In this document: one piece after another, positions 3,993 through 18,143 of the stretch
Numbering within the stretch: position 1 is the stretch's first letter
Layout: each line of letters starts with the position of its first letter
Origin: a virus
Lineage: Duplodnaviria; Caudoviricetes
IMG/VR virus record: IMGVR_UViG_3300021088_000016
Location: 1 to 52,010 of that record
DNA length: 52,010 nt
Direction: 5' to 3' (one strand)
Notes under the pieces: model-generated
What the model was told of the DNA's origin: nothing
Database searches by the model: none
What the model saw: only the letters and a program-made list of their open reading frames with translations
Translations under genes and position numbers: made by a program

Positions 3993-4229
3993 ATGATTAT
4001 TGAATGTGCCTGTGGTCGTTTGGAGACTCGGCACGATACCTCAAGTCATCGTATTAAGGGATTGTGCCATCGCTGTAGAGCAGAGAAGTTGGCGCGAATT
4101 AAGTACCTTTCACGTATGTATCCGGCGGTATTTGCGCCGATCCTGCGGTATGCAGGTAAAGGCAAGCTAGCTACACGTGTGCCTGGCGGAATAGGTAGAC
4201 GCAAGGGACTTAAAATCCCTCGGCAGTAA
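3993..4229 (+). CDS. Small Cys-containing protein (CAC...CHRC) whose 3' end overlaps the tRNA
   Basis: AAGGAG SD, ATG at 3993, stop inside the tRNA. Confidence 0.55.
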   Translation: MIIECACGRLETRHDTSSHRIKGLCHRCRAEKLARIKYLSRMYPAVFAPILRYAGKGKLATRVPGGIGRRKGLKIPRQ

Positions 4230-4263
4230 TACCGTGCGGGTTCGAGTCCCGCGGCACACACCA
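4177..4263 (+). tRNA. tRNA-Leu(UAA)
   Basis: Acceptor GTGTGCC/GGCACAC, A discriminator and encoded CCA; anticodon arm AGGGA-CTTAAAA-TCCCT; long variable arm; T arm GCGGG-TTCGAGT-CCCGC. Confidence 0.97.
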
Positions 4264-7736: not shown

Positions 7737-7907
7737 ATGAGTAAGATGCTTGAACGCCATGTTCCTTGTCCAATGTGCACCAGTTCCGATGCATATTGTG
7801 TATATGCAGATGGACATGGCTATTGTTTTGCTTGCAAAAGATCTAAAAGAGGGTATAATATAGAACCTATTATAATTAATAACAAGAACAAGGAGCCCAA
7901 GTGGTAG
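7737..7907 (+). CDS. Stand-alone T7-type primase zinc-binding domain, 56 aa
   Basis: MSKMLERHVPCPMCTSSDAYCVYADGHGYCFACK... matches the gp4 ZBD pattern; ends at TAG 7905-7907. Confidence 0.85.
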   Translation: MSKMLERHVPCPMCTSSDAYCVYADGHGYCFACKRSKRGYNIEPIIINNKNKEPKW

Positions 7908-9310
7908 ATGATGAACCAGAGTTCACTTATGAATTTTACGGACGACGAGGCATTACGTCAGAGTGTTTTAGACATTATGGCTGCCAGACTAAAATTAATA
8001 GAGAAGGAAAACCTATCTCCGTTGGGTATAAGTATCCAAACGGGTCGGTTAAAGTTAGAGATTTAGAACAAAAGAACTTCTATTGGTTTGGTTCACCTAC
8101 CCCGGGGTTGTACGGCACAGATATCTTCGCCTCTGGGTCCAATAAATACTGTGTCGTAACAGAAGGAGAAGAGGATGCTCACACCCTTTGGCAAGTTCTT
8201 AAGGTTCCAGCTTGTAGTGTTCAATCTAGCGCTACTGCTCGTCGTGACTGTGTGGCTAGCTTCGATTGGCTATCTGGGTTCGATCGGGTCTACCTATGCT
8301 TCGACAATGATGGACCAGGCCGGGAAGCTCTTGCAAGTGTCGCGAGACTGTTCGACTTCAATAAAGTCTACGTGGTTCGACTCGCAAGAAAGGACGCGAA
8401 CGAACATCTCCAGCACGGAGAAGTAAACGAACTCCAGAACGTCTGGGCTAACGCCAAGCGTTACGTACCGGACAATATCATCTCCACGTTTACGGAGTTC
8501 GAAGATGCTCTGTCCAAGGACACGAGTAAGGGGGTCCCTTATCCATGGCCCACCTTGACTGAGATGACCGGAGGAATAAGGCAATACGAAACAGTCCTTG
8601 TCACCGCTCCTGAAGGTGTAGGTAAGACGGAGTGGATGAAGGCTGTTGAGTACAAACTCTTGAAGGAGACAGATGACAATGTCGGCGCGATCTACATTGA
8701 AGAACCTAAAGAGTGGCACCTCCGAAGCCTTGTCGGTATTGAAAAAGGAGCACCCGTTCATCTTCCAGACCAAGCCCTTCCGGTGGGTGAGCAAGTTGAT
8801 ACCCTCCGAAGCCTACTCAAAAGAGATGAGCGTCTTTTTCTGTACTCTCACTTTGGGTCAGTTGATCCTGACTCTCTCTTGGACACTATTAGGTTTCTGG
8901 TGTCTGCCTGTCTTTGCCGGTATATCCTGTTGGATCATATCACCATGGCTGTTACGGGCCTGGCCGGGGAAGACGAACGACGAGCACTAGACTACCTCAT
9001 GTCCCGGCTCGAGATGATGGTCAAAGAGCTGGGCTTTGCCCTCATAGTAGTGAGCCATGTCAATGACTTTGGACAGACACGTGGCAGCCGGGCTCCTGGA
9101 AAGTTGGCTGATATCCGTATTGATCTTGCCCGTGATGTTCTCAACCCTGATCCACTTATACAGTCCACTATTACCCAGACAATTAGCAAACCTTGTCGCT
9201 TCACTGGTAGGTCTGGTTTTGCTGGATCTATTACTTTTGACTCTCATCGTCGTAAGTTTACCGAACTAGCCAATGACAATGCAGAATGGAAAGGGGTTGC
9301 AAATGGTTGA
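7901..9310 (+). CDS. Primase (TOPRIM)-DnaB-like helicase, T7 gp4-like, lacking the ZBD
   Basis: TEGEED, FDNDGPG, KDANE, Walker A APEGVGKT, LLDHIT, VSHVN, RGS. Confidence 0.95.
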   Translation: MVDDEPEFTYEFYGRRGITSECFRHYGCQTKINREGKPISVGYKYPNGSVKVRDLEQKNFYWFGSPTPGLYGTDIFASGSNKYCVVTEGEEDAHTLWQVLKVPACSVQSSATARRDCVASFDWLSGFDRVYLCFDNDGPGREALASVARLFDFNKVYVVRLARKDANEHLQHGEVNELQNVWANAKRYVPDNIISTFTEFEDALSKDTSKGVPYPWPTLTEMTGGIRQYETVLVTAPEGVGKTEWMKAVEYKLLKETDDNVGAIYIEEPKEWHLRSLVGIEKGAPVHLPDQALPVGEQVDTLRSLLKRDERLFLYSHFGSVDPDSLLDTIRFLVSACLCRYILLDHITMAVTGLAGEDERRALDYLMSRLEMMVKELGFALIVVSHVNDFGQTRGSRAPGKLADIRIDLARDVLNPDPLIQSTITQTISKPCRFTGRSGFAGSITFDSHRRKFTELANDNAEWKGVANG

Positions 9311-11891: not shown

Positions 11892-12143
11892 TTGAAGAGC
11901 CGCTTGCTTTGCATCGGCCCGTTGTCTAGAGATGTAAAGAAATATAAGTATCGGCTACCCAGGAGATATTCATTGTCGTATAAAACATTAAAGCGTAGAT
12001 TGCAAAGAAAGAAAAGAGCCGCCAATTTAAAGTGGTGGGCAGACTACCGCAGAGAAGAAGCGGATCGAGCATTTAAGGATTGGAAGTTAGTTAATGAACA
12101 TTTATTAGAGATTAATCGACTTGAAATGCGTAGTGGACATTGA
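11892..12143 (+). CDS. Basic hypothetical protein (start uncertain)
   Basis: ORF overlapping the DNA polymerase start. Confidence 0.45.
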   Translation: MKSRLLCIGPLSRDVKKYKYRLPRRYSLSYKTLKRRLQRKKRAANLKWWADYRREEADRAFKDWKLVNEHLLEINRLEMRSGH

Positions 12144-14076
12144 GACTGACAAACTATATGACCCGGAGCATATCTGGGTCATAGTCTGTAAAGATATTGA
12201 CACTAATGAACATCATATATTTAGAGAGGTAACAAAGAATAAACATGAAGCAGACAGATTTAAAGAGTTTACAAAGGACGTTGAACTTTGGATCGGCCAC
12301 AATTTTCTTGAGTTCGATCATCCTTGCATCGAGCATCTTCTTTCCATTAGCCTACTTAGCCCAACATGTGACAATGTTATTGACACACTGATTGTATCTA
12401 GATTAGTTAATTACAATCGGGAATGGGGCCACTCTCTAGCTCAGTTCGGTACAGAGTTAGGAGTTGAAAAGATATACTTCAGTGACTTCTCCGCCTACTC
12501 GAAAGAGATGGAGGTGTACTGTGTCCGAGACGTCGACCTCACCCACTTGGTATATAATAGCTTCGCTAGCGTTATCAACGATGTGGCTTGGCGTCCAAGT
12601 ATTAATCTCGAACAGCAATTTCAACTCATTCTTAATGGGGTACATGAACGGGGTTTTGCTTTTAATTCTTCTGCTGCTAATAAGCTTCTGCTTGAAGTAA
12701 AGGGAGAGTTGGATGCATTGGATGCAGAAATTAAGGAAGTATTTCTCCCCAAGGCCAAACCACTACGAGAGGTACATCCAAGACTTACCAAATACGGTAC
12801 TCTTAATCGAAGTGATTTCCGGTTCGTGTCACATGGTGATCTATCGGAATACAACGGCGGTCCTTTTACCCGCATCGTTTACGAACCGTTTAATGCTGCG
12901 TCTCATAAGCAAGTTGTTGATGTCCTCTGTAGCGCAGGCTGGGCTCCCACAGAGAAAACAGACACGCACATCAAAGTCCTCCGAGAACTGGCCCAGTGTA
13001 AACGATCTAGAAGTCCGGAGAAAGAACTTGACATAGAGAAACTTTCTGTTAAACTAGGTACATTGAGTAAGTACGGATTTAAGGTCAACGAGAATAACTT
13101 AGCTACTTTACCCTCCTCTGCTCCTCCTCCTGCCCTCCTCCTTCATAAGAGGATCCTTCGTGAGTCCAGGCGTCGAACTCTTACCGAATGGCTTTCTCTC
13201 CTTTCCCCAGACGGTAGAGTCCATGGTGAATTCCAAGGTATCGGCGCTTGGACCCACAGGATGGCTCATCAGAAGCCTAACCTCGCAAACATCCCTAATG
13301 AGTTTGTAAACTCTACGGGGGCTGTGAAGTATCTAGGTAAGGAATTACGGTCTCTATGGACACATGGCGAGGGTCGTATCCTCTGGGGAGTAGACGCAGA
13401 CAGCATACAATTCCGTGTTGCTGCACATTACATCAACGACAAGAATTTAATTGAAAGAATTGTCAATGGACGAAAATCAGATAAGACCGACACACATTCC
13501 TTTAATAAGATCCTCCTTGGCCCCGTCTGTAAGTCCAGACAAGCTGCTAAGCAATTCCTCTTCTCTACATTCCTTGGCGCAGGAATTGGTAAATTTGCTT
13601 CAATTCTGGATGCCTCTGAAAGGCAAGCGGCAGAGGCTCTCGCTATCTTGCTTAGGGAATATCCTGGGATTGATTACATTAAGCGAAAAGTCGCTCCAAG
13701 TGACGCTAAGCAAGGATATTTTATCGGTCTCGACGGACGCAGAGTTCCAATTCCAGGAGATACCGTGGACGAGCGAAAACACCTCGCTCCCTCCGGGTAC
13801 CTCCAGTGTGGCGAAGCGGTCATTATCAAACTCGCAGCTACGCATTTCCGCCCACAACTCTCGGCCTTAGACAGTTTCTTAGTCGATATAGTTCATGATG
13901 AATACCAGGGTGAGTCTCCCAATAAAGAGATTGCTTTAGAGGTTTGTGAGATAGTCTCCCAATCAATCAAATGGGCGGGAGAAGAGCTTAAACTAAACTG
14001 TCCTATGGCAGGGAGTTACTATGATGAAGACCATCAACGTCATACAATTGGTGAGAACTGGTATCAGACGCATTAG
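12121..14076 (+). CDS. Family A DNA polymerase with 3'-5' exonuclease (T7 gp5-like)
   Basis: VDIETD, GHNFLEFD, YCVRDV exonuclease motifs; THRMAHQKPNLAN; motif A GVDADSIQFR; motif B RQAAK; motif C VHDE. Confidence 0.97.
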   Translation: MKCVVDIETDKLYDPEHIWVIVCKDIDTNEHHIFREVTKNKHEADRFKEFTKDVELWIGHNFLEFDHPCIEHLLSISLLSPTCDNVIDTLIVSRLVNYNREWGHSLAQFGTELGVEKIYFSDFSAYSKEMEVYCVRDVDLTHLVYNSFASVINDVAWRPSINLEQQFQLILNGVHERGFAFNSSAANKLLLEVKGELDALDAEIKEVFLPKAKPLREVHPRLTKYGTLNRSDFRFVSHGDLSEYNGGPFTRIVYEPFNAASHKQVVDVLCSAGWAPTEKTDTHIKVLRELAQCKRSRSPEKELDIEKLSVKLGTLSKYGFKVNENNLATLPSSAPPPALLLHKRILRESRRRTLTEWLSLLSPDGRVHGEFQGIGAWTHRMAHQKPNLANIPNEFVNSTGAVKYLGKELRSLWTHGEGRILWGVDADSIQFRVAAHYINDKNLIERIVNGRKSDKTDTHSFNKILLGPVCKSRQAAKQFLFSTFLGAGIGKFASILDASERQAAEALAILLREYPGIDYIKRKVAPSDAKQGYFIGLDGRRVPIPGDTVDERKHLAPSGYLQCGEAVIIKLAATHFRPQLSALDSFLVDIVHDEYQGESPNKEIALEVCEIVSQSIKWAGEELKLNCPMAGSYYDEDHQRHTIGENWYQTH

Positions 14077-15096: not shown

Positions 15097-15441
15097 ATGA
15101 TGAAAAAGCAGAAGTCCCATACAGGAGAGTTTATTATGGGCAGGAAGAATAGGTTCTCAAACACACTGGTAGCAGGTGCTGACGAGACTTTCTTCGTCAT
15201 CACCATGGACAATGGTAAGTCCAGTCCTGCCTTGAATGCCAAACAGGAGATCGTTGATTGGCTCGACGAACATTTCGTTAATACTGAGACCAATGTGTCT
15301 CAGATCACAGTCAAGAGAAAGAAGAGGAAGTCCGCTCTCCTGCGTGAGGCCGAGAGAAACTCGGAGATCGCAATCTTGGAGAAGCGTTTGGAGTTCCTCA
15401 AGGAACAGCCTTCTGTCGTCGATGGCAAGGGGGCTCTCTAA
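15097..15441 (+). CDS. Hypothetical protein
   Basis: ORF with AGGAG SD before MGRKNR. Confidence 0.7.
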   Translation: MMKKQKSHTGEFIMGRKNRFSNTLVAGADETFFVITMDNGKSSPALNAKQEIVDWLDEHFVNTETNVSQITVKRKKRKSALLREAERNSEIAILEKRLEFLKEQPSVVDGKGAL

Positions 15442-16479
15442 TCCGGCCGAGTACCTGCCTGGCTGTCTACCAGGCGTGAGGGAAAGCTGACTGCACTGGC
15501 CTGCTTGTGCGGAGAAAGTAAGGTGCACAACCAAAGCGGGATAGAAGGGACTATCGGAAATCTTGGCGACGCAACCGGCTTCTACAATGGAAAGTCCCAG
15601 CTGAGGGTGGCCGTCTCCTTAAGTGGTACTTACGGCGTATCAGCTATTGCTGGTCCAAACAGCGATCCAGGTAGAGCAGAGATGGAAGATTTGTCCGCCT
15701 CATTGACGATGCGCAATTCGATGAGGAAATAGCAAACAGCCCGTATGACGTCCGGTTCGACTCCGGTAACCCTTAAGTGGGTGGGTGTATCTCATACGAC
15801 GAGCCTTACAGACGGTATAGATTAAGGGCCTGGTGCCACGATACTGTCCATGTCTGGGGCTAATACCTCGATGACGAGGACAACGTATAACCTAAGTAGT
15901 GTCCCACTAAACAACCGGCGTACGGGTCCCCTGAGTGACCCTTGTGGGCACGTAAGTTCCGAAAGTACGGGTGCACAGTGGGTTCGACTCCCTACTCCGT
16001 GAGACGGAGACCGGCGGTGCATAGAAGGTAGTCAAGTGCGAGGCGCTATCCTTTGGGTAGCGGGCTTGGCATTACTAGTAGGAACGTGGGTTGACTGGCC
16101 AGTGTGAAAAGCTGGCATTGTGCGTCCATTCGCACTACGCCTAGATCTATCGTCTAGAGAAAGAAGAGGTGTTAAGTTGACTCTGTCAGCCACTGACATC
16201 CCGAGTGATAAAGAAGCCTACACAGGCGGCCTATAAGTCCGATGCTAATCCTTGAAGGGACAAGGAGCATACGTGGTCGGCACGGATCCTCGAAGATACA
16301 ATACGTTAACTCTGGTCCGTCTCGTTGAAGATGTTCAAGAGAATGGATTATCAGGGACGAAGCGCGTAACCCACACAAGAGGTGAACAACCATGTGCAGG
16401 AAACAACGCATCATTCGCCCCATCAGACCTCCTTAATGGAACCCCGGGGATGGGACCCCTCGTCACGCTACCAGATAAC
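15441..16479 (+). ncRNA. Candidate giant structured non-coding RNA (domain 1 15441-16287; domain 2 16305-16479)
   Basis: About 1 kb with no credible ORF in an otherwise tightly packed arm; closing helix ATCCGGCCGA/TCGGC(A)CGGAT; many nested helices; two GGTTCGACTCC T-loops. Confidence 0.7.
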
Positions 16480-16493
16480 AATGGAGAGAAACC

Positions 16494-16790
16494 ATGAATT
16501 GGTGGCAGACTCCGTATAATCCGCCACCCTACGGGTGGCCTCCGCAGCAGATACCTTGTCCTCCTGGCGTTGATCCAATTAAAGTGATGGAGTTTATGGA
16601 TCGAGTTCAGAGGAGGGCTCAGAAAGCAAAGGAAAAAGATAAGGACCCTAAGAAAGATGAGAAGAAGCCCAGTCCTTGGAAAGATGCCTTGTGGTACTTC
16701 CAGGCTGCATGTATATTGTACTTCTTGTCTCCCCCTCTTGCTGCTTTGCAGCATATAATTTCCACCATCGTAACACAGGTCATGAAGTAA
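16494..16790 (+). CDS. Pro-rich hypothetical membrane protein
   Basis: GGAGAG SD; C-terminal hydrophobic stretch. Confidence 0.7.
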   Translation: MNWWQTPYNPPPYGWPPQQIPCPPGVDPIKVMEFMDRVQRRAQKAKEKDKDPKKDEKKPSPWKDALWYFQAACILYFLSPPLAALQHIISTIVTQVMK

Positions 16791-16791
16791 T

Positions 16792-17655
16792 TTGCCTACC
16801 ATCGACACACTCATTCGCGACGTTTACAAGGTTTTGGAGGTACGGGATGGAACCTTCTGTGGAGAGACTGTTGATGTTTTATCCACGAATATCACTAGCC
16901 GCTTATTACATCAACTGGGTGAGGGACCCGCGGGACGAAGACCTACACTCCGATTGTCAGGAATGGGTCCTAAATGTCCTCGCGCTCTCTGGTACTCAAT
17001 TAACAAGCCAGAACTTGCGGAGCATTTACCTCCGTGGGTCCACGCTAAATTCGCGTTTGGGCATATCTTGGAAGCGTTCGGAATAGCGTTATGTAAAGCA
17101 GCAGGACACACAGTCACAGGAGAACAGGATGAACTCTGCGTGGACGGTGTGGTCGGCCATAGAGACGCTGTGGTGGATGGCTGTGTTGTGGATTTCAAGT
17201 CTTGTAGCAGTCGTTCTTTTGAGAAGTTCAAGAACAAATCTCTTGCTCATGATGATCCTTTTGGGTATCTGGATCAGATGGATGGATACTTGGTGGGATC
17301 ATTTAATGACCCTCTGGTCACAGTAAAGGACAGGGGGTACCTATTCGCCATTGATAAAACATTAGGACATATGTGCTTATATGAACACAAAGTCAGAGAA
17401 GACCACATTAGAGAAAGAGTTAAACAGTCTAAAGAAATCGTTAACCTCCCTGAACCTCCACGTTGTAGATGTGGAACACAACCTGTCGGAGAGTCTGGAA
17501 ACGTTAAGCTCGATATCAAAGCTAGTTACAGCGACTTCAAACACTGTTGCTTCCCTGGCCTACGAACATTCATCTACGCTGGTGGCCCAGTCTACCTCAC
17601 AGAAGTGAAAAGGGTACCCGATGTCCCAGAACTCCACAGACACCCTGTCCATTAA
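16792..17655 (+). CDS. PD-(D/E)XK exonuclease (Cas4-like, SIO1-type)
   Basis: LRLSGMG.C.R.LWY, FGHILE, GHRDAVVDG, VDFKS; TTG start. Confidence 0.85.
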   Translation: MPTIDTLIRDVYKVLEVRDGTFCGETVDVLSTNITSRLLHQLGEGPAGRRPTLRLSGMGPKCPRALWYSINKPELAEHLPPWVHAKFAFGHILEAFGIALCKAAGHTVTGEQDELCVDGVVGHRDAVVDGCVVDFKSCSSRSFEKFKNKSLAHDDPFGYLDQMDGYLVGSFNDPLVTVKDRGYLFAIDKTLGHMCLYEHKVREDHIRERVKQSKEIVNLPEPPRCRCGTQPVGESGNVKLDIKASYSDFKHCCFPGLRTFIYAGGPVYLTEVKRVPDVPELHRHPVH

Positions 17656-17818
17656 CTTTACTGGTTCAATGCGTACCAACAATGAACTGTTAATCATTAA
17701 GTTCATTGACGATGTGAAAGAATTATTTGCTGAGTGGCAGGAGACAGTACAGATTACCAGTTTGAATATTGCAGTACACGATAATAGGAATTATGAAGTT
17801 AAAGAAGACCCGAAATAA
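17621..17818 (+). CDS. Hypothetical protein
   Basis: Overlapping small ORF in the operon. Confidence 0.5.
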   Translation: MSQNSTDTLSINFTGSMRTNNELLIIKFIDDVKELFAEWQETVQITSLNIAVHDNRNYEVKEDPK

Positions 17819-18143
17819 GTTTGAGGCGAAGATCGAGAAACAACTCAAGAGAGCTAGAGTTGTATTCAGCTACGAAGCCAAGAAGATACCCTACCTCTTA
17901 TCAGGGCATTACATCCCTGACTTCTGCATACAGACCCCTACTGGTGTTCTATACGTAGAGACCAAAGGGTATTTCAGACCTGAAGCCAAAAGGAAGATGG
18001 TCGCAGTTAAGAAATTAAATCCCCATCTGGATATACGAATAGTTTTCTATGCCCTCAAGAAAAAAGATATAGCTTGGGCAATTAGAAACGGATTCAAATA
18101 TTCGGTGGGGACAATACCGAAGGAGTGGTTAGATGGACTTTAA
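17793..18143 (+). CDS. Endonuclease I (T7 gp3-like Holliday junction resolvase)
   Basis: RNKFE, YIPDF, VETKG, DIRIVF and IPKEW motifs. Confidence 0.9.
   Translation: MKLKKTRNKFEAKIEKQLKRARVVFSYEAKKIPYLLSGHYIPDFCIQTPTGVLYVETKGYFRPEAKRKMVAVKKLNPHLDIRIVFYALKKKDIAWAIRNGFKYSVGTIPKEWLDGL

What the first reader, a model, noticed from the sequence alone, without database searches (positions are those of the whole stretch)
15441..16287. Candidate giant (~850 nt) end-closed structured ncRNA in the replication arm
Seen: no credible ORF in a genome otherwise packed with coupled genes. The 5' end (15441-15450) pairs with 16277-16287. Nested helices include 15457-62/15470-75, 15505-10/15525-30, 15547-52/15593-98, 15599-604/15640-45 enclosing 15610-14/15632-36, 15742-48/15792-98, 15995-16000/16004-09, and 16030-35/16091-96 enclosing 16044-51/16055-62, with many G-U pairs on the + strand. 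Known: large phage-associated RNAs of unknown function exist (GOLLD, ROOL). I cannot match this one to them, nor to a group I/II intron, RNase P or tmRNA. Inference: a possibly new class of large phage RNA (scaffold, ribozyme, decoy or guide carrier). This is the best candidate for an undescribed system here.
Basis: partly seen in the sequence, partly recalled or inferred. Interest (0 to 1): 0.88.

Follow-up and report, generated by a model that had tools for sequence, protein, structure and literature searches.

The report
Large phage RNA with tRNA-like modules
A gene-free stretch of about 0.9 kb in a soil phage genome most likely encodes a large folded RNA with two tRNA-like elbows that matches no catalogued RNA family; its function, and whether it is a single molecule, are untested.

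Summary
The window is a complete 52-kb phage record. Positions 15442-16380 are non-coding. Substitutions against two relatives show no codon periodicity there (p=0.45), whereas the four flanking ORFs give p<=1e-5. No frame opens under TAG or TGA recoding.

The stretch is GC-enriched and conserved in two distinct relatives at 72-76% identity. It shows more compensatory base-pair changes than the coding flanks: 51 of 253 predicted pairs against 29 of 210 and 15 of 234. A sister cluster of 5-6 phages gives a stronger signal: 91 of 293 against 11 of 236.

The stretch holds two tRNA T-arm hairpins (15752-15766 and 15980-15992). Each sits inside a closing helix next to an acceptor-like stem-loop. 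This is the layout of the tRNA-like domain of bacterial YrlA Y RNAs.

The T-loop motif occurs 63 times on the + strand and 0 times on the - strand of 81 related loci (1.2 expected per strand).

Rfam and ARAGORN match nothing. The claimed end-closing helix is not robust, and folding energy is no better than shuffled sequence.

The last ~100 nt of the gap is a conserved 14-codon leader ORF ending in Pro-Pro-stop, not ncRNA.

Verdict: a real, probably new structured RNA region of unknown function.

The parts
15442..16380 (+). Conserved ORF-free, GC-enriched block; candidate large structured RNA, or a chain of about 11 structured domains
   Evidence: No codon periodicity. Aligned end to end with L002 and L003 at 72-76% identity. 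238 consensus pairs, 54 of them with both-side changes.
15444..15512 (+). 5' hairpin domain (15444-15489) plus hairpin 15491-15512
   Evidence: Helices 1-4: 18 pairs, 100% of cells paired, 4 pairs with both-side changes. Not found outside L002/L003.
15581..15675 (+). Three-way-junction domain with an invariant 17-nt block (15610-15626) and GGAAAGTCC (15589-15597)
   Evidence: Helices 8-12: 27 pairs, 7 with both-side changes, 1 unpaired cell.
15698..15726 (+). 10-bp hairpin
   Evidence: Helix 15: 4 of 10 pairs with both-side changes.
15742..15798 (+). tRNA-like module T1. Closing helix 15742-48/15792-98. T-arm stem 15752-55/15763-66 with loop TTCGACT. Small acceptor-like hairpin 15769-72/15779-82, which is absent in L002 and L003.
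   Evidence: Fold. Helices 16-17. A 19-nt block including the T-arm is invariant in the 3 relatives.
15802..15861 (+). Long irregular hairpin
   Evidence: Helices 18-19: 22 pairs, 4 with both-side changes.
15867..16159 (+). Multi-branch domain of about 290 nt, closed by long-range helices 15867-15894 / 16087-16159
   Evidence: Helices 20-22: 24 pairs, 6 with both-side changes, 3 unpaired cells. Predicted identically with either 3' boundary.
15971..16022 (+). tRNA-like module T2. Closing helix 15971-76/16017-22. T-arm 15980-82/15990-92 with loop TTCGACT. Acceptor-like hairpin 15995-99/16005-09. Linker ACCGGCG 16010-16016.
   Evidence: Model R1 hits 10 distinct sequences. 97.9% of cells are paired and 6 of 10 pairs have both-side changes. 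L093 and L018 were not in the training set.
16098..16135 (+). Two hairpins: 16098-16116 (loop GTGAAAA) and 16120-16135
   Evidence: Helices 30 and 31: 6 of 11 pairs with both-side changes. A further compensated variant of the second hairpin is seen in soil-run contigs (loose end at 16120).
16168..16359 (+). 3' domains 16168-16200, 16202-16292 and 16304-16359
   Evidence: Helices 32-41: 55 pairs, 12 with both-side changes.
16392..16436 (+). Leader ORF of 14 codons (MCRKQRIIRPIRPP-stop) with ribosome-binding site 16381-16387. Not part of the ncRNA; it marks the ncRNA's 3' limit.
   Evidence: The CCT CCT to CCA CCC change in L003 is synonymous. A short ORF ending in Pro-Pro-stop is found in 39 of 50 sources.

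Best explanation
Positions 15442 to about 16380 encode, on the + strand, a large and rapidly evolving structured non-coding RNA. It has no promoter or terminator of its own, so it would be transcribed within the replication-module operon.

The RNA is a chain of about 11 helical domains. Its conserved core consists of two tRNA-elbow mimics. Each has a T-arm with the canonical T-loop, stacked next to an acceptor-like stem-loop and enclosed by a helix that takes the place of the anticodon stem. This is the same circularly permuted order as in the tRNA-like domain of bacterial YrlA Y RNAs.

Inferred mechanism, not shown: the elbows are read by host factors that recognise the tRNA elbow or T-arm (T-arm modification enzymes, RNase P, CCA-adding enzyme, ribosome or Ro-type RNPs). 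The RNA would then be processed and stabilised like a tRNA and act as a decoy or scaffold for such a factor during infection. The variable domains would serve as scaffolding.

Shown: non-coding nature, conservation, excess compensatory change, the T-arm modules with their strand and their spread in the clade, and no match to known families. Inferred: transcription, one molecule rather than several, and every functional step.
For: Non-coding: substitutions 152/174/169 by codon phase (p=0.45) against p<=1e-5 in the 4 flanking ORFs; no recoded ORF.

Conservation: full-length alignment with 2 distinct relatives.

Structure:
- Pairs taken from the window's own MFE keep pairing through double changes 42 times against 146 breaks. 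In the coding flanks the figures are 31 against 317 (odds ratio 2.9, p=3e-5).
- Consensus fold: 56 of 254 pairs have both-side changes, against 21.0 +/- 3.6 in shuffles (0 of 500 reach it) and 3-8 when partners are slid.
- The same pipeline on the coding flanks gives 29 of 210 and 15 of 234, against 51 of 253 in the gap.
- The sister cluster gives 91 of 293 against 11 of 236.

tRNA-like modules:
- The motif GGTTCRAN[TC]CC occurs 63 times on the + strand and 0 times on the - strand in 542 kb of 81 loci (1.2 expected per strand). 46 of the 63 lie in the ORF-free gaps (0.11 expected).
- The order variable arm, T-arm, acceptor-like stem-loop, D-arm within a closing helix is seen in relatives such as L026 and L010. 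It equals the YrlA layout (passages of PMC4201824).

Clade feature: 36 of 42 loci whose exonuclease is >=51% identical have an ORF-free run of >=500 nt upstream, against 0 of 28 more distant loci.
Against: - Only three distinct sequences of this exact RNA exist in the collections searched. With three sequences the excess of compensatory pairs over coding controls is only 1.5- to 3-fold.
- The consensus structure tested was derived from the same alignment.
- The MFE is no better than shuffles (z=-1.28).
- The - strand also gives many compensatory pairs (39 of 226), so the strand rests mainly on the T-loop orientation and the direction of the neighbouring genes.
- No promoter or terminator lies in the gap, and there is no expression evidence.
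- Outside the T2 module, neither blastn, nhmmer nor model R2 links the window's RNA to any other cluster. The variable parts may therefore be weakly constrained.
- The long-range end closure is unstable, which leaves several smaller RNAs as a possibility.
- The T-arm stems of the window are short (3-4 bp), and neither module has a D-stem.
Confidence: 0.6

Rival explanations
1. The region is not one giant RNA but an island of several separate small tRNA-like RNAs and hairpins. These would derive from a former tRNA gene cluster at this position and would be cut out individually, with the tRNA-like modules acting as processing signals. They might also simply punctuate the polycistronic transcript.
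For: Distant relatives carry real tRNA genes immediately upstream of the exonuclease: L056 has tRNA-Trp and tRNA-Thr, and L065 has tRNA-Asn. The number and spacing of T-arms vary from 1 to 3 per gap, 51-227 nt apart. The end-closing helix is not robust. M. smegmatis YrlA is cut by RNase P in its acceptor-like loop (passage of PMC4201824).
Against: T2 lies inside a domain of about 290 nt closed by long-range helices with 6 covarying pairs. The stretches between the modules are as conserved and as compensated as the modules themselves. The acceptor-like stems are only 4-6 bp. The YrlA paper reports RNase P cleavage only for the YrlA that has a 7-bp stem.
Confidence: 0.2
2. The block is a long structured 5' leader that acts in cis. 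Together with the Pro-Pro-stop leader ORF, it would control the stability, processing or translation of the downstream genes (98-aa protein, Cas4-like exonuclease, endonuclease I).
For: It lies directly upstream of a conserved leader ORF and of the 98-aa gene. It has no promoter or terminator of its own. The gap and the leader ORF occur together in the same clade.
Against: A leader of 0.9-2 kb would be extreme for a phage. T-arm mimics have no known role in such leaders. The leader ORF has its own ribosome-binding site and a short spacer, which would suffice for attenuation.
Confidence: 0.1
3. The region is a weakly constrained spacer made of decayed tRNA genes, or a DNA-level element such as a replication origin. 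The apparent structure would be what RNAalifold finds in any three-sequence alignment.
For: Coding controls also yield 15-29 'compensatory' pairs. The MFE is like that of shuffles. The sequence diverges rapidly between clusters. The region sits in the replication module.
Against: T-loop motifs are kept intact and are strictly strand-specific, 63 against 0. The 19-23-nt blocks are invariant. Double changes that keep pairing are about 3 times more frequent than in the flanks and about 8 times more frequent in the sister cluster. GC is raised rather than lowered, unlike AT-rich origins.
Confidence: 0.08

Closest known systems
tRNA-like domain of bacterial YrlA Y RNAs (Chen et al. 2014, PMC4201824; passages read)
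   Same: A T-arm with tRNA-type T-loop is followed by an acceptor-like stem-loop and then a D-arm or D-loop analogue. All of this is enclosed by a helix in the place of the anticodon stem, optionally with a variable-arm hairpin before the T-arm. YrlA RNAs also occur in phages.
   Different: The phage has no Ro60/TROVE gene. There is no convincing Ro-binding GNCGAA(N)G helix. The window's modules lack a D-stem. Two modules are embedded in about 0.9 kb of further structure, rather than one in a small Y RNA. The phage has no Rfam match beyond its tRNA-Leu gene.
GOLLD and ROOL large phage RNAs (Rfam models; bioRxiv 10.1101/2024.12.08.627333, passages read)
   Same: They are large (600-800+ nt), ornate, phage-encoded and of unknown function. 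They are linked to tRNA islands, and tRNAs sometimes sit inside GOLLD's linker.
   Different: Neither model matches the window at gathering score or at E<=10, nor 37 related loci. Multimer or cage formation is unknown here.
tRNA genes and tmRNA
   Same: The T-arm consensus GGTTCGANTCC. A real tRNA-Leu lies elsewhere in the same phage (4177-4263).
   Different: There is no cloverleaf, no anticodon arm and no 7-bp acceptor stem with free ends. ARAGORN finds no tRNA or tmRNA in the gap. Rfam's tRNA model gives no hit there at E<=10.
Viral tRNA-like structures (Rfam Tymo_tRNA-like)
   Same: The only Rfam alignment touching the region covers the T2 module (15953-16012).
   Different: 16 bits against a gathering score of 40, with E=1.8: a chance-level match. 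Those elements sit at the 3' ends of RNA-virus genomes.
manA RNA motif (Rfam RF01745; Weinberg et al. 2010, PMC2864571, passages read)
   Same: A phage-associated structured RNA. One relative's gap (L038 1128-1285) matches it below threshold, at 33.4 bits and E=2e-6.
   Different: There is no manA match in the window. The L038 score is below the gathering score of 55.2.

Membership tests
GOLLD / ROOL (Rfam) | Match to the family covariance model | tested here: not met
   cmscan of the whole window at gathering score and of 15300-16600 at E<=10 found no hit. None was found in 37 related loci either.
tRNA | T-arm with T-loop consensus | tested here: met
   GGTTCGACTCC at 15754 and 15981 on the + strand; hairpins folded.
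tRNA | Complete cloverleaf with 7-bp acceptor stem, D-arm and anticodon arm | tested here: not met
   ARAGORN finds only tRNA-Leu at 4177-4263. Rfam's tRNA model gives no hit in the gap at E<=10.
tmRNA | tRNA-like domain plus tag reading frame, standard or permuted | tested here: not met
   ARAGORN reports no tmRNA; there is no Rfam tmRNA hit.
YrlA / bacterial Y RNA | Order T-arm, acceptor-like stem-loop, D-arm within a closing helix | tested here: inconclusive
   The window's T1 and T2 have a closing helix, a T-arm and an acceptor-like hairpin but no D-stem. The full order with a D-arm is seen in relatives L026, L010, L022, L028, L030 and L008.
YrlA / bacterial Y RNA | Encoded next to a Ro60 (TROVE) gene | tested here: not met
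   PF05731 has no match in the 52-kb record; the control genomes were positive.
YrlA / bacterial Y RNA | Ro-binding helix with the GNCGAA(N)G motif | tested here: inconclusive
   One + strand GACGAAG lies at 16356-16362. It is not at the base of either tRNA-like module, and the motif occurs about 20 times by chance in the window.
RNase P RNA | Match to the Rfam RNase P models (P4 core) | tested here: not met
   No hit at E<=10. The resemblance of GGAAAGTCC (15589-15597) to the P4 strand is recalled from memory only.
Group I / II introns | Match to the Rfam intron models | tested here: not met
   No hit. The region also does not interrupt a gene.
manA RNA motif | Match to RF01745 at gathering score | tested here: not met
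   No hit in the window. There is only a sub-threshold hit in L038.

The most novel reading that the evidence does not exclude
A previously undescribed class of giant (0.9-2 kb) phage RNAs, specific to a large clade of soil T7-like phages. These RNAs would be built around one to three circularly permuted tRNA elbows. They would hijack host machinery that reads the tRNA elbow, for processing, modification or sequestration of a tRNA-binding factor. Alternatively, they would assemble through their T-loops into higher-order particles, as GOLLD and ROOL do.
Probability: 0.25. Interest if true: 0.85.

Novelty: new variant of a known kind. Interest (0 to 1): 0.62.

Why it matters
Large structured RNAs of phages, such as GOLLD and ROOL, are few, and their functions are unknown. 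tRNA mimicry by Y RNAs is known, but what it is for is also unknown.

A clade-wide phage RNA of about a kilobase that carries YrlA-type tRNA elbows without a Ro gene would link these two puzzles. It would point to the tRNA elbow as the handle by which such RNAs engage the host. It would also offer a new, very divergent family for structural and functional study, because at least 36 related loci hold such gaps.

Even on the conservative reading, the finding shows that about 2% of this phage genome is kept as non-coding, structured sequence.

Tried and rejected
Searches that found nothing or nothing new:
- blastn of 15300-16600 against 50,697 phage records: no match.
- A scan of IMG/VR and of JGI metagenomes with a 19-nt invariant block gave only contigs identical to L002 or L003 in the region. 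No new homologues came from it.
- A genome-contig scan with the T2 pattern gave 3 matches in GC-rich coding DNA without a T-arm. R1 scored them 22-27 bits, and I judged them chance matches.
- nhmmer with a profile of the 3 sequences, and CM R2 (16041-16140), found nothing beyond the training sequences. Collinear short motifs shared with the sister cluster therefore remain an impression, not a demonstrated homology.

Ideas tested and dropped:
- The GAAAGTCC motif is seen in only 4 other loci and is not a family core.
- The 5' hairpin domain is not conserved outside L002 and L003.
- I first read CCNCCTTAA as a hairpin. Only 5 of 30 loci have the exact partner. The motif is instead Pro-Pro-stop of a leader ORF.
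- RNase P-like reading: rejected, with no Rfam support.
- A protein-coding reading under recoding: rejected.
- No sigma-70-like promoter or intrinsic terminator lies in the gap, and there is no repeated phage-promoter-like motif.

Expression: no RNA holder is listed among the sequencing runs. The contigs of four soil runs laid on the region show that several relatives exist there, but the variants could not be phased into sequences. No part without cover is interpreted.

Prior description: none was found in five full-text searches.

For that reason the Logan and ENA contigs behind proteins P0002-P0008 (71-83% identical exonucleases), which probably hold further homologues, could not be fetched.
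Full report
Context. The window is a complete IMG/VR virus record of 52,010 bp with direct terminal repeats. From about 2.7 to 20.3 kb the genes run on the + strand. They include a primase-helicase (7901-9310), a family A DNA polymerase (12121-14076), a Cas4-domain exonuclease (16792-17655) and an endonuclease I (17769-18143). Between the stop of a 114-aa ORF (15441) and the start of a 98-aa ORF (16494) lie 1,052 bases without a credible gene.

Is it non-coding? Yes, up to about 16380.
- No long frame opens with TAG or TGA read through.
- The stop-free pieces of 45 codons or more differ in frame among the three relatives.
- Substitutions against the two relatives fall 152/174/169 on the three codon phases (p=0.45), and no 90-nt sub-window reaches p<0.01. 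The four neighbouring ORFs give p between 1e-5 and 3e-16.
- GC rises to 0.51-0.55 from 0.42-0.49 in the flanks.

All 10 are complementary in the window.
- Five are in the three-genome consensus fold, and four of those five carry compensatory changes (15610-14/15632-36 is invariant).
- One (15505-10/15525-30) is displaced by a covarying rival.
- Two are lost in L002.
- One is conserved but uninformative.
- The end-closing helix is seen only in the single-sequence MFE. In the consensus, 16284-92 pairs with 16202-09. The predicted long-range closure also changes when the 3' boundary changes.
- Thermodynamic stability is not above chance (z=-1.28 and -0.49).

Relatives.
- The exonuclease family is very large: 1,755 proteins at E<=0.001 among 2,252 candidates.
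- I fetched 81 IMG/VR loci (the second scan kept the best 80 of 576 confirmed relatives, and more exist).
- Only L002 and L003 align with the gap, at 74% and 71% over its full length.
- Further scans with an invariant 19-mer returned only copies of these two.
- The phage database has nothing similar.
- Four soil runs of one study hold contigs of several further relatives, but these could not be retrieved as sequences.

Structure tests. I ran two tests on the three-sequence alignment.
- In the first, pairs were taken from the MFE of the window sequence alone, so they are independent of the relatives. In the relatives these pairs survive a change on both sides 42 times and break 146 times in the gap. 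In the coding flanks the figures are 31 and 317 (odds ratio 2.9, p=3e-5).
- The second used the consensus fold of the three sequences. It has 254 pairs, 95.8% of cells paired, and 56 pairs with changes on both sides. Column shuffles give 21.0 +/- 3.6 (0 of 500 reach the observed value), and slid partners give 3-8.
- That structure was derived from the same alignment, so I ran the identical pipeline on the flanks. It gave 29 of 210 and 15 of 234 pairs, against 51 of 253 in the gap, and 39 of 226 on the gap's minus strand.
- The excess is therefore real but modest with three sequences.

The sister cluster gives a stronger replicate. It consists of L016, L034, L035, L040, L041/L092 and L093, with gaps of 1.2-1.5 kb. 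It has 91 of 293 pairs with both-side changes, against 11 of 236 in its coding control with the same five genomes.

The tRNA-like modules. The gap holds two exact tRNA T-arm motifs on the + strand, at 15754 and 15981.
- T1 is a 7-bp closing helix around a 4-bp T-arm and a small hairpin.
- T2 is a 6-bp closing helix around a T-arm, a 5-bp hairpin and the linker ACCGGCG.
- A covariance model of the T2 core (R1) finds it in 10 distinct sequences of two clusters. These include L093 and L018, which were not used to build the model. 97.9% of cells are paired and 6 of 10 pairs change on both sides.
- That alignment is fitted to the model, which favours the structure.
- Across 81 loci (542 kb) the motif GGTTCRAN[TC]CC occurs 63 times on the + strand and never on the - strand (1.2 expected per strand). 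46 of the 63 lie in the ORF-free gaps, where 0.11 are expected.
- ARAGORN calls tRNAs in only 2 of the 60 loci scanned, and both are distant relatives.

In several relatives the module is complete: a closing helix, an optional variable-arm hairpin, the T-arm, an acceptor-like stem-loop and a D-arm with a GG loop (L026, L010, L022, L028, L030, L008). This is the order described for the tRNA-like domain of YrlA Y RNAs, where the stem-loop between 'T' and 'D' takes the place of the acceptor stem (PMC4201824, passages read).

Spread in the clade. Among loci with at least 1.5 kb upstream of the exonuclease, 36 of 42 whose exonuclease is >=51% identical have an ORF-free run of >=500 nt, and 31 of 42 have a T-loop motif. 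Among the 28 more distant loci, none has such a run. Two of the distant ones carry real tRNA genes directly upstream of the exonuclease. The gaps fall into many clusters that cannot be aligned with each other. Apart from the T2 core, neither nhmmer nor model R2 connects the window's RNA to other clusters.

The 3' boundary. The motif CCNCCTTAA, which recurs near the 3' end of the gaps, is the end of a small ORF, not a helix.
- In the window, 16392-16436 encodes MCRKQRIIRPIRPP-stop behind a ribosome-binding site.
- L003 differs there by synonymous Pro codons.
- 39 of 50 sources examined have a 12-29-codon ORF ending in Pro-Pro-stop, 16-198 nt before the next gene.
- The ncRNA candidate therefore ends at about 16360-16380.
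- The long-range helices that RNAalifold drew into 16420-16461 are probably spurious.

Known families.
- Rfam 15 gives only the tRNA-Leu at 4177-4260 for the whole window.
- At E<=10 in 15300-16600 it gives only chance-level hits. The best is a viral tRNA-like element over T2, at 16 bits against a gathering score of 40.
- 37 related loci give no family at gathering score or at E<=1. The exception is a sub-threshold manA match in L038.
- The record has no TROVE/Ro60 gene.
- The region is therefore not a member of GOLLD, ROOL, tRNA, tmRNA, RNase P, the intron families or YrlA as defined. It resembles YrlA in module topology. It resembles GOLLD and ROOL in size, phage origin and link to tRNAs (passages of bioRxiv 10.1101/2024.12.08.627333).

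Mechanism. The most economical reading is a structured RNA whose conserved, selected parts are tRNA-elbow mimics. The elbow is the surface read by the ribosome and by RNase P and T-box RNAs (abstract of PMC4810234 and start of the PMC4919913 abstract, both seen in the listing). The T-arm is the substrate of TruB-type enzymes, as shown for YrlA in PMC4201824. I therefore propose that the RNA is processed, modified and stabilised like a tRNA and binds or sequesters a tRNA-elbow reader. This proposal is inference only. The rivals are listed with their odds: an island of separate small tRNA-like RNAs, a giant cis-acting leader coupled to the Pro-Pro-stop ORF, or a weakly constrained remnant of a tRNA cluster.

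Limits.
- There are only three sequences of the exact RNA.
- There are no transcript data, and the host is unknown.
- Supplementary tables of a 2023 catalogue of viral structured RNAs (PMC10690425) could not be read.

Noticed in passing
window 16381-16436; also 38 related loci (e.g. L035 3108-3149, L007 3080-3118): A conserved leader ORF of 12-29 codons with its own ribosome-binding site, always ending in Pro-Pro-stop and mostly in Arg/Gln-Pro-Pro-stop. It lies 16-198 nt upstream of the 96-98-aa gene. The peptides are otherwise unrelated. It looks like a termination-stalling or attenuator peptide. The analogy to known Pro-stop arrest peptides is recalled from memory, not tested.
   Followed up: partly
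window 16494-16790: The 98-aa protein behind the leader ORF has a proline-rich N-terminus (NPPPYGWPPQQIPCPPG) and a hydrophobic C-terminus. It has no Pfam or PHROG match.
   Followed up: no
window 4177-4263: A bona fide tRNA-Leu (anticodon TAA), found by ARAGORN and by Rfam at 57 bits. It is the only canonical tRNA in the phage.
   Followed up: no
L056 3327-3484; L065 3411-3487: Distant relatives (exonuclease 42-44% identical) lack the long gap. They carry real tRNA genes (Trp and Thr; Asn) directly upstream of the exonuclease. This hints that the gap RNAs and a tRNA island share a genomic slot or an origin.
   Followed up: partly
L038 1128-1285: A sub-threshold match to the Rfam manA RNA motif (33.4 bits, gathering score 55.2, E=2e-6) inside the ORF-free gap of one relative.
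   Followed up: partly
L016, L034, L035, L040, L041/L092, L093 (e.g. L035 1955-3213): The sister cluster's gap is 1.2-1.5 kb and holds three T-arm-like hairpins, one of them with the loop variant GGTTCGATGCC. It gives a much stronger compensatory-change signal than the window's cluster: 91 of 293 pairs against 11 of 236 in the coding control.
   Followed up: partly
window 15441-15487 and 15958-16051: In contigs of four soil metagenome runs laid at >=80% likeness, summed depth peaks over the 5' hairpin and the T2 module. This suggests that these are the blocks shared by many uncollected relatives.
   Followed up: no
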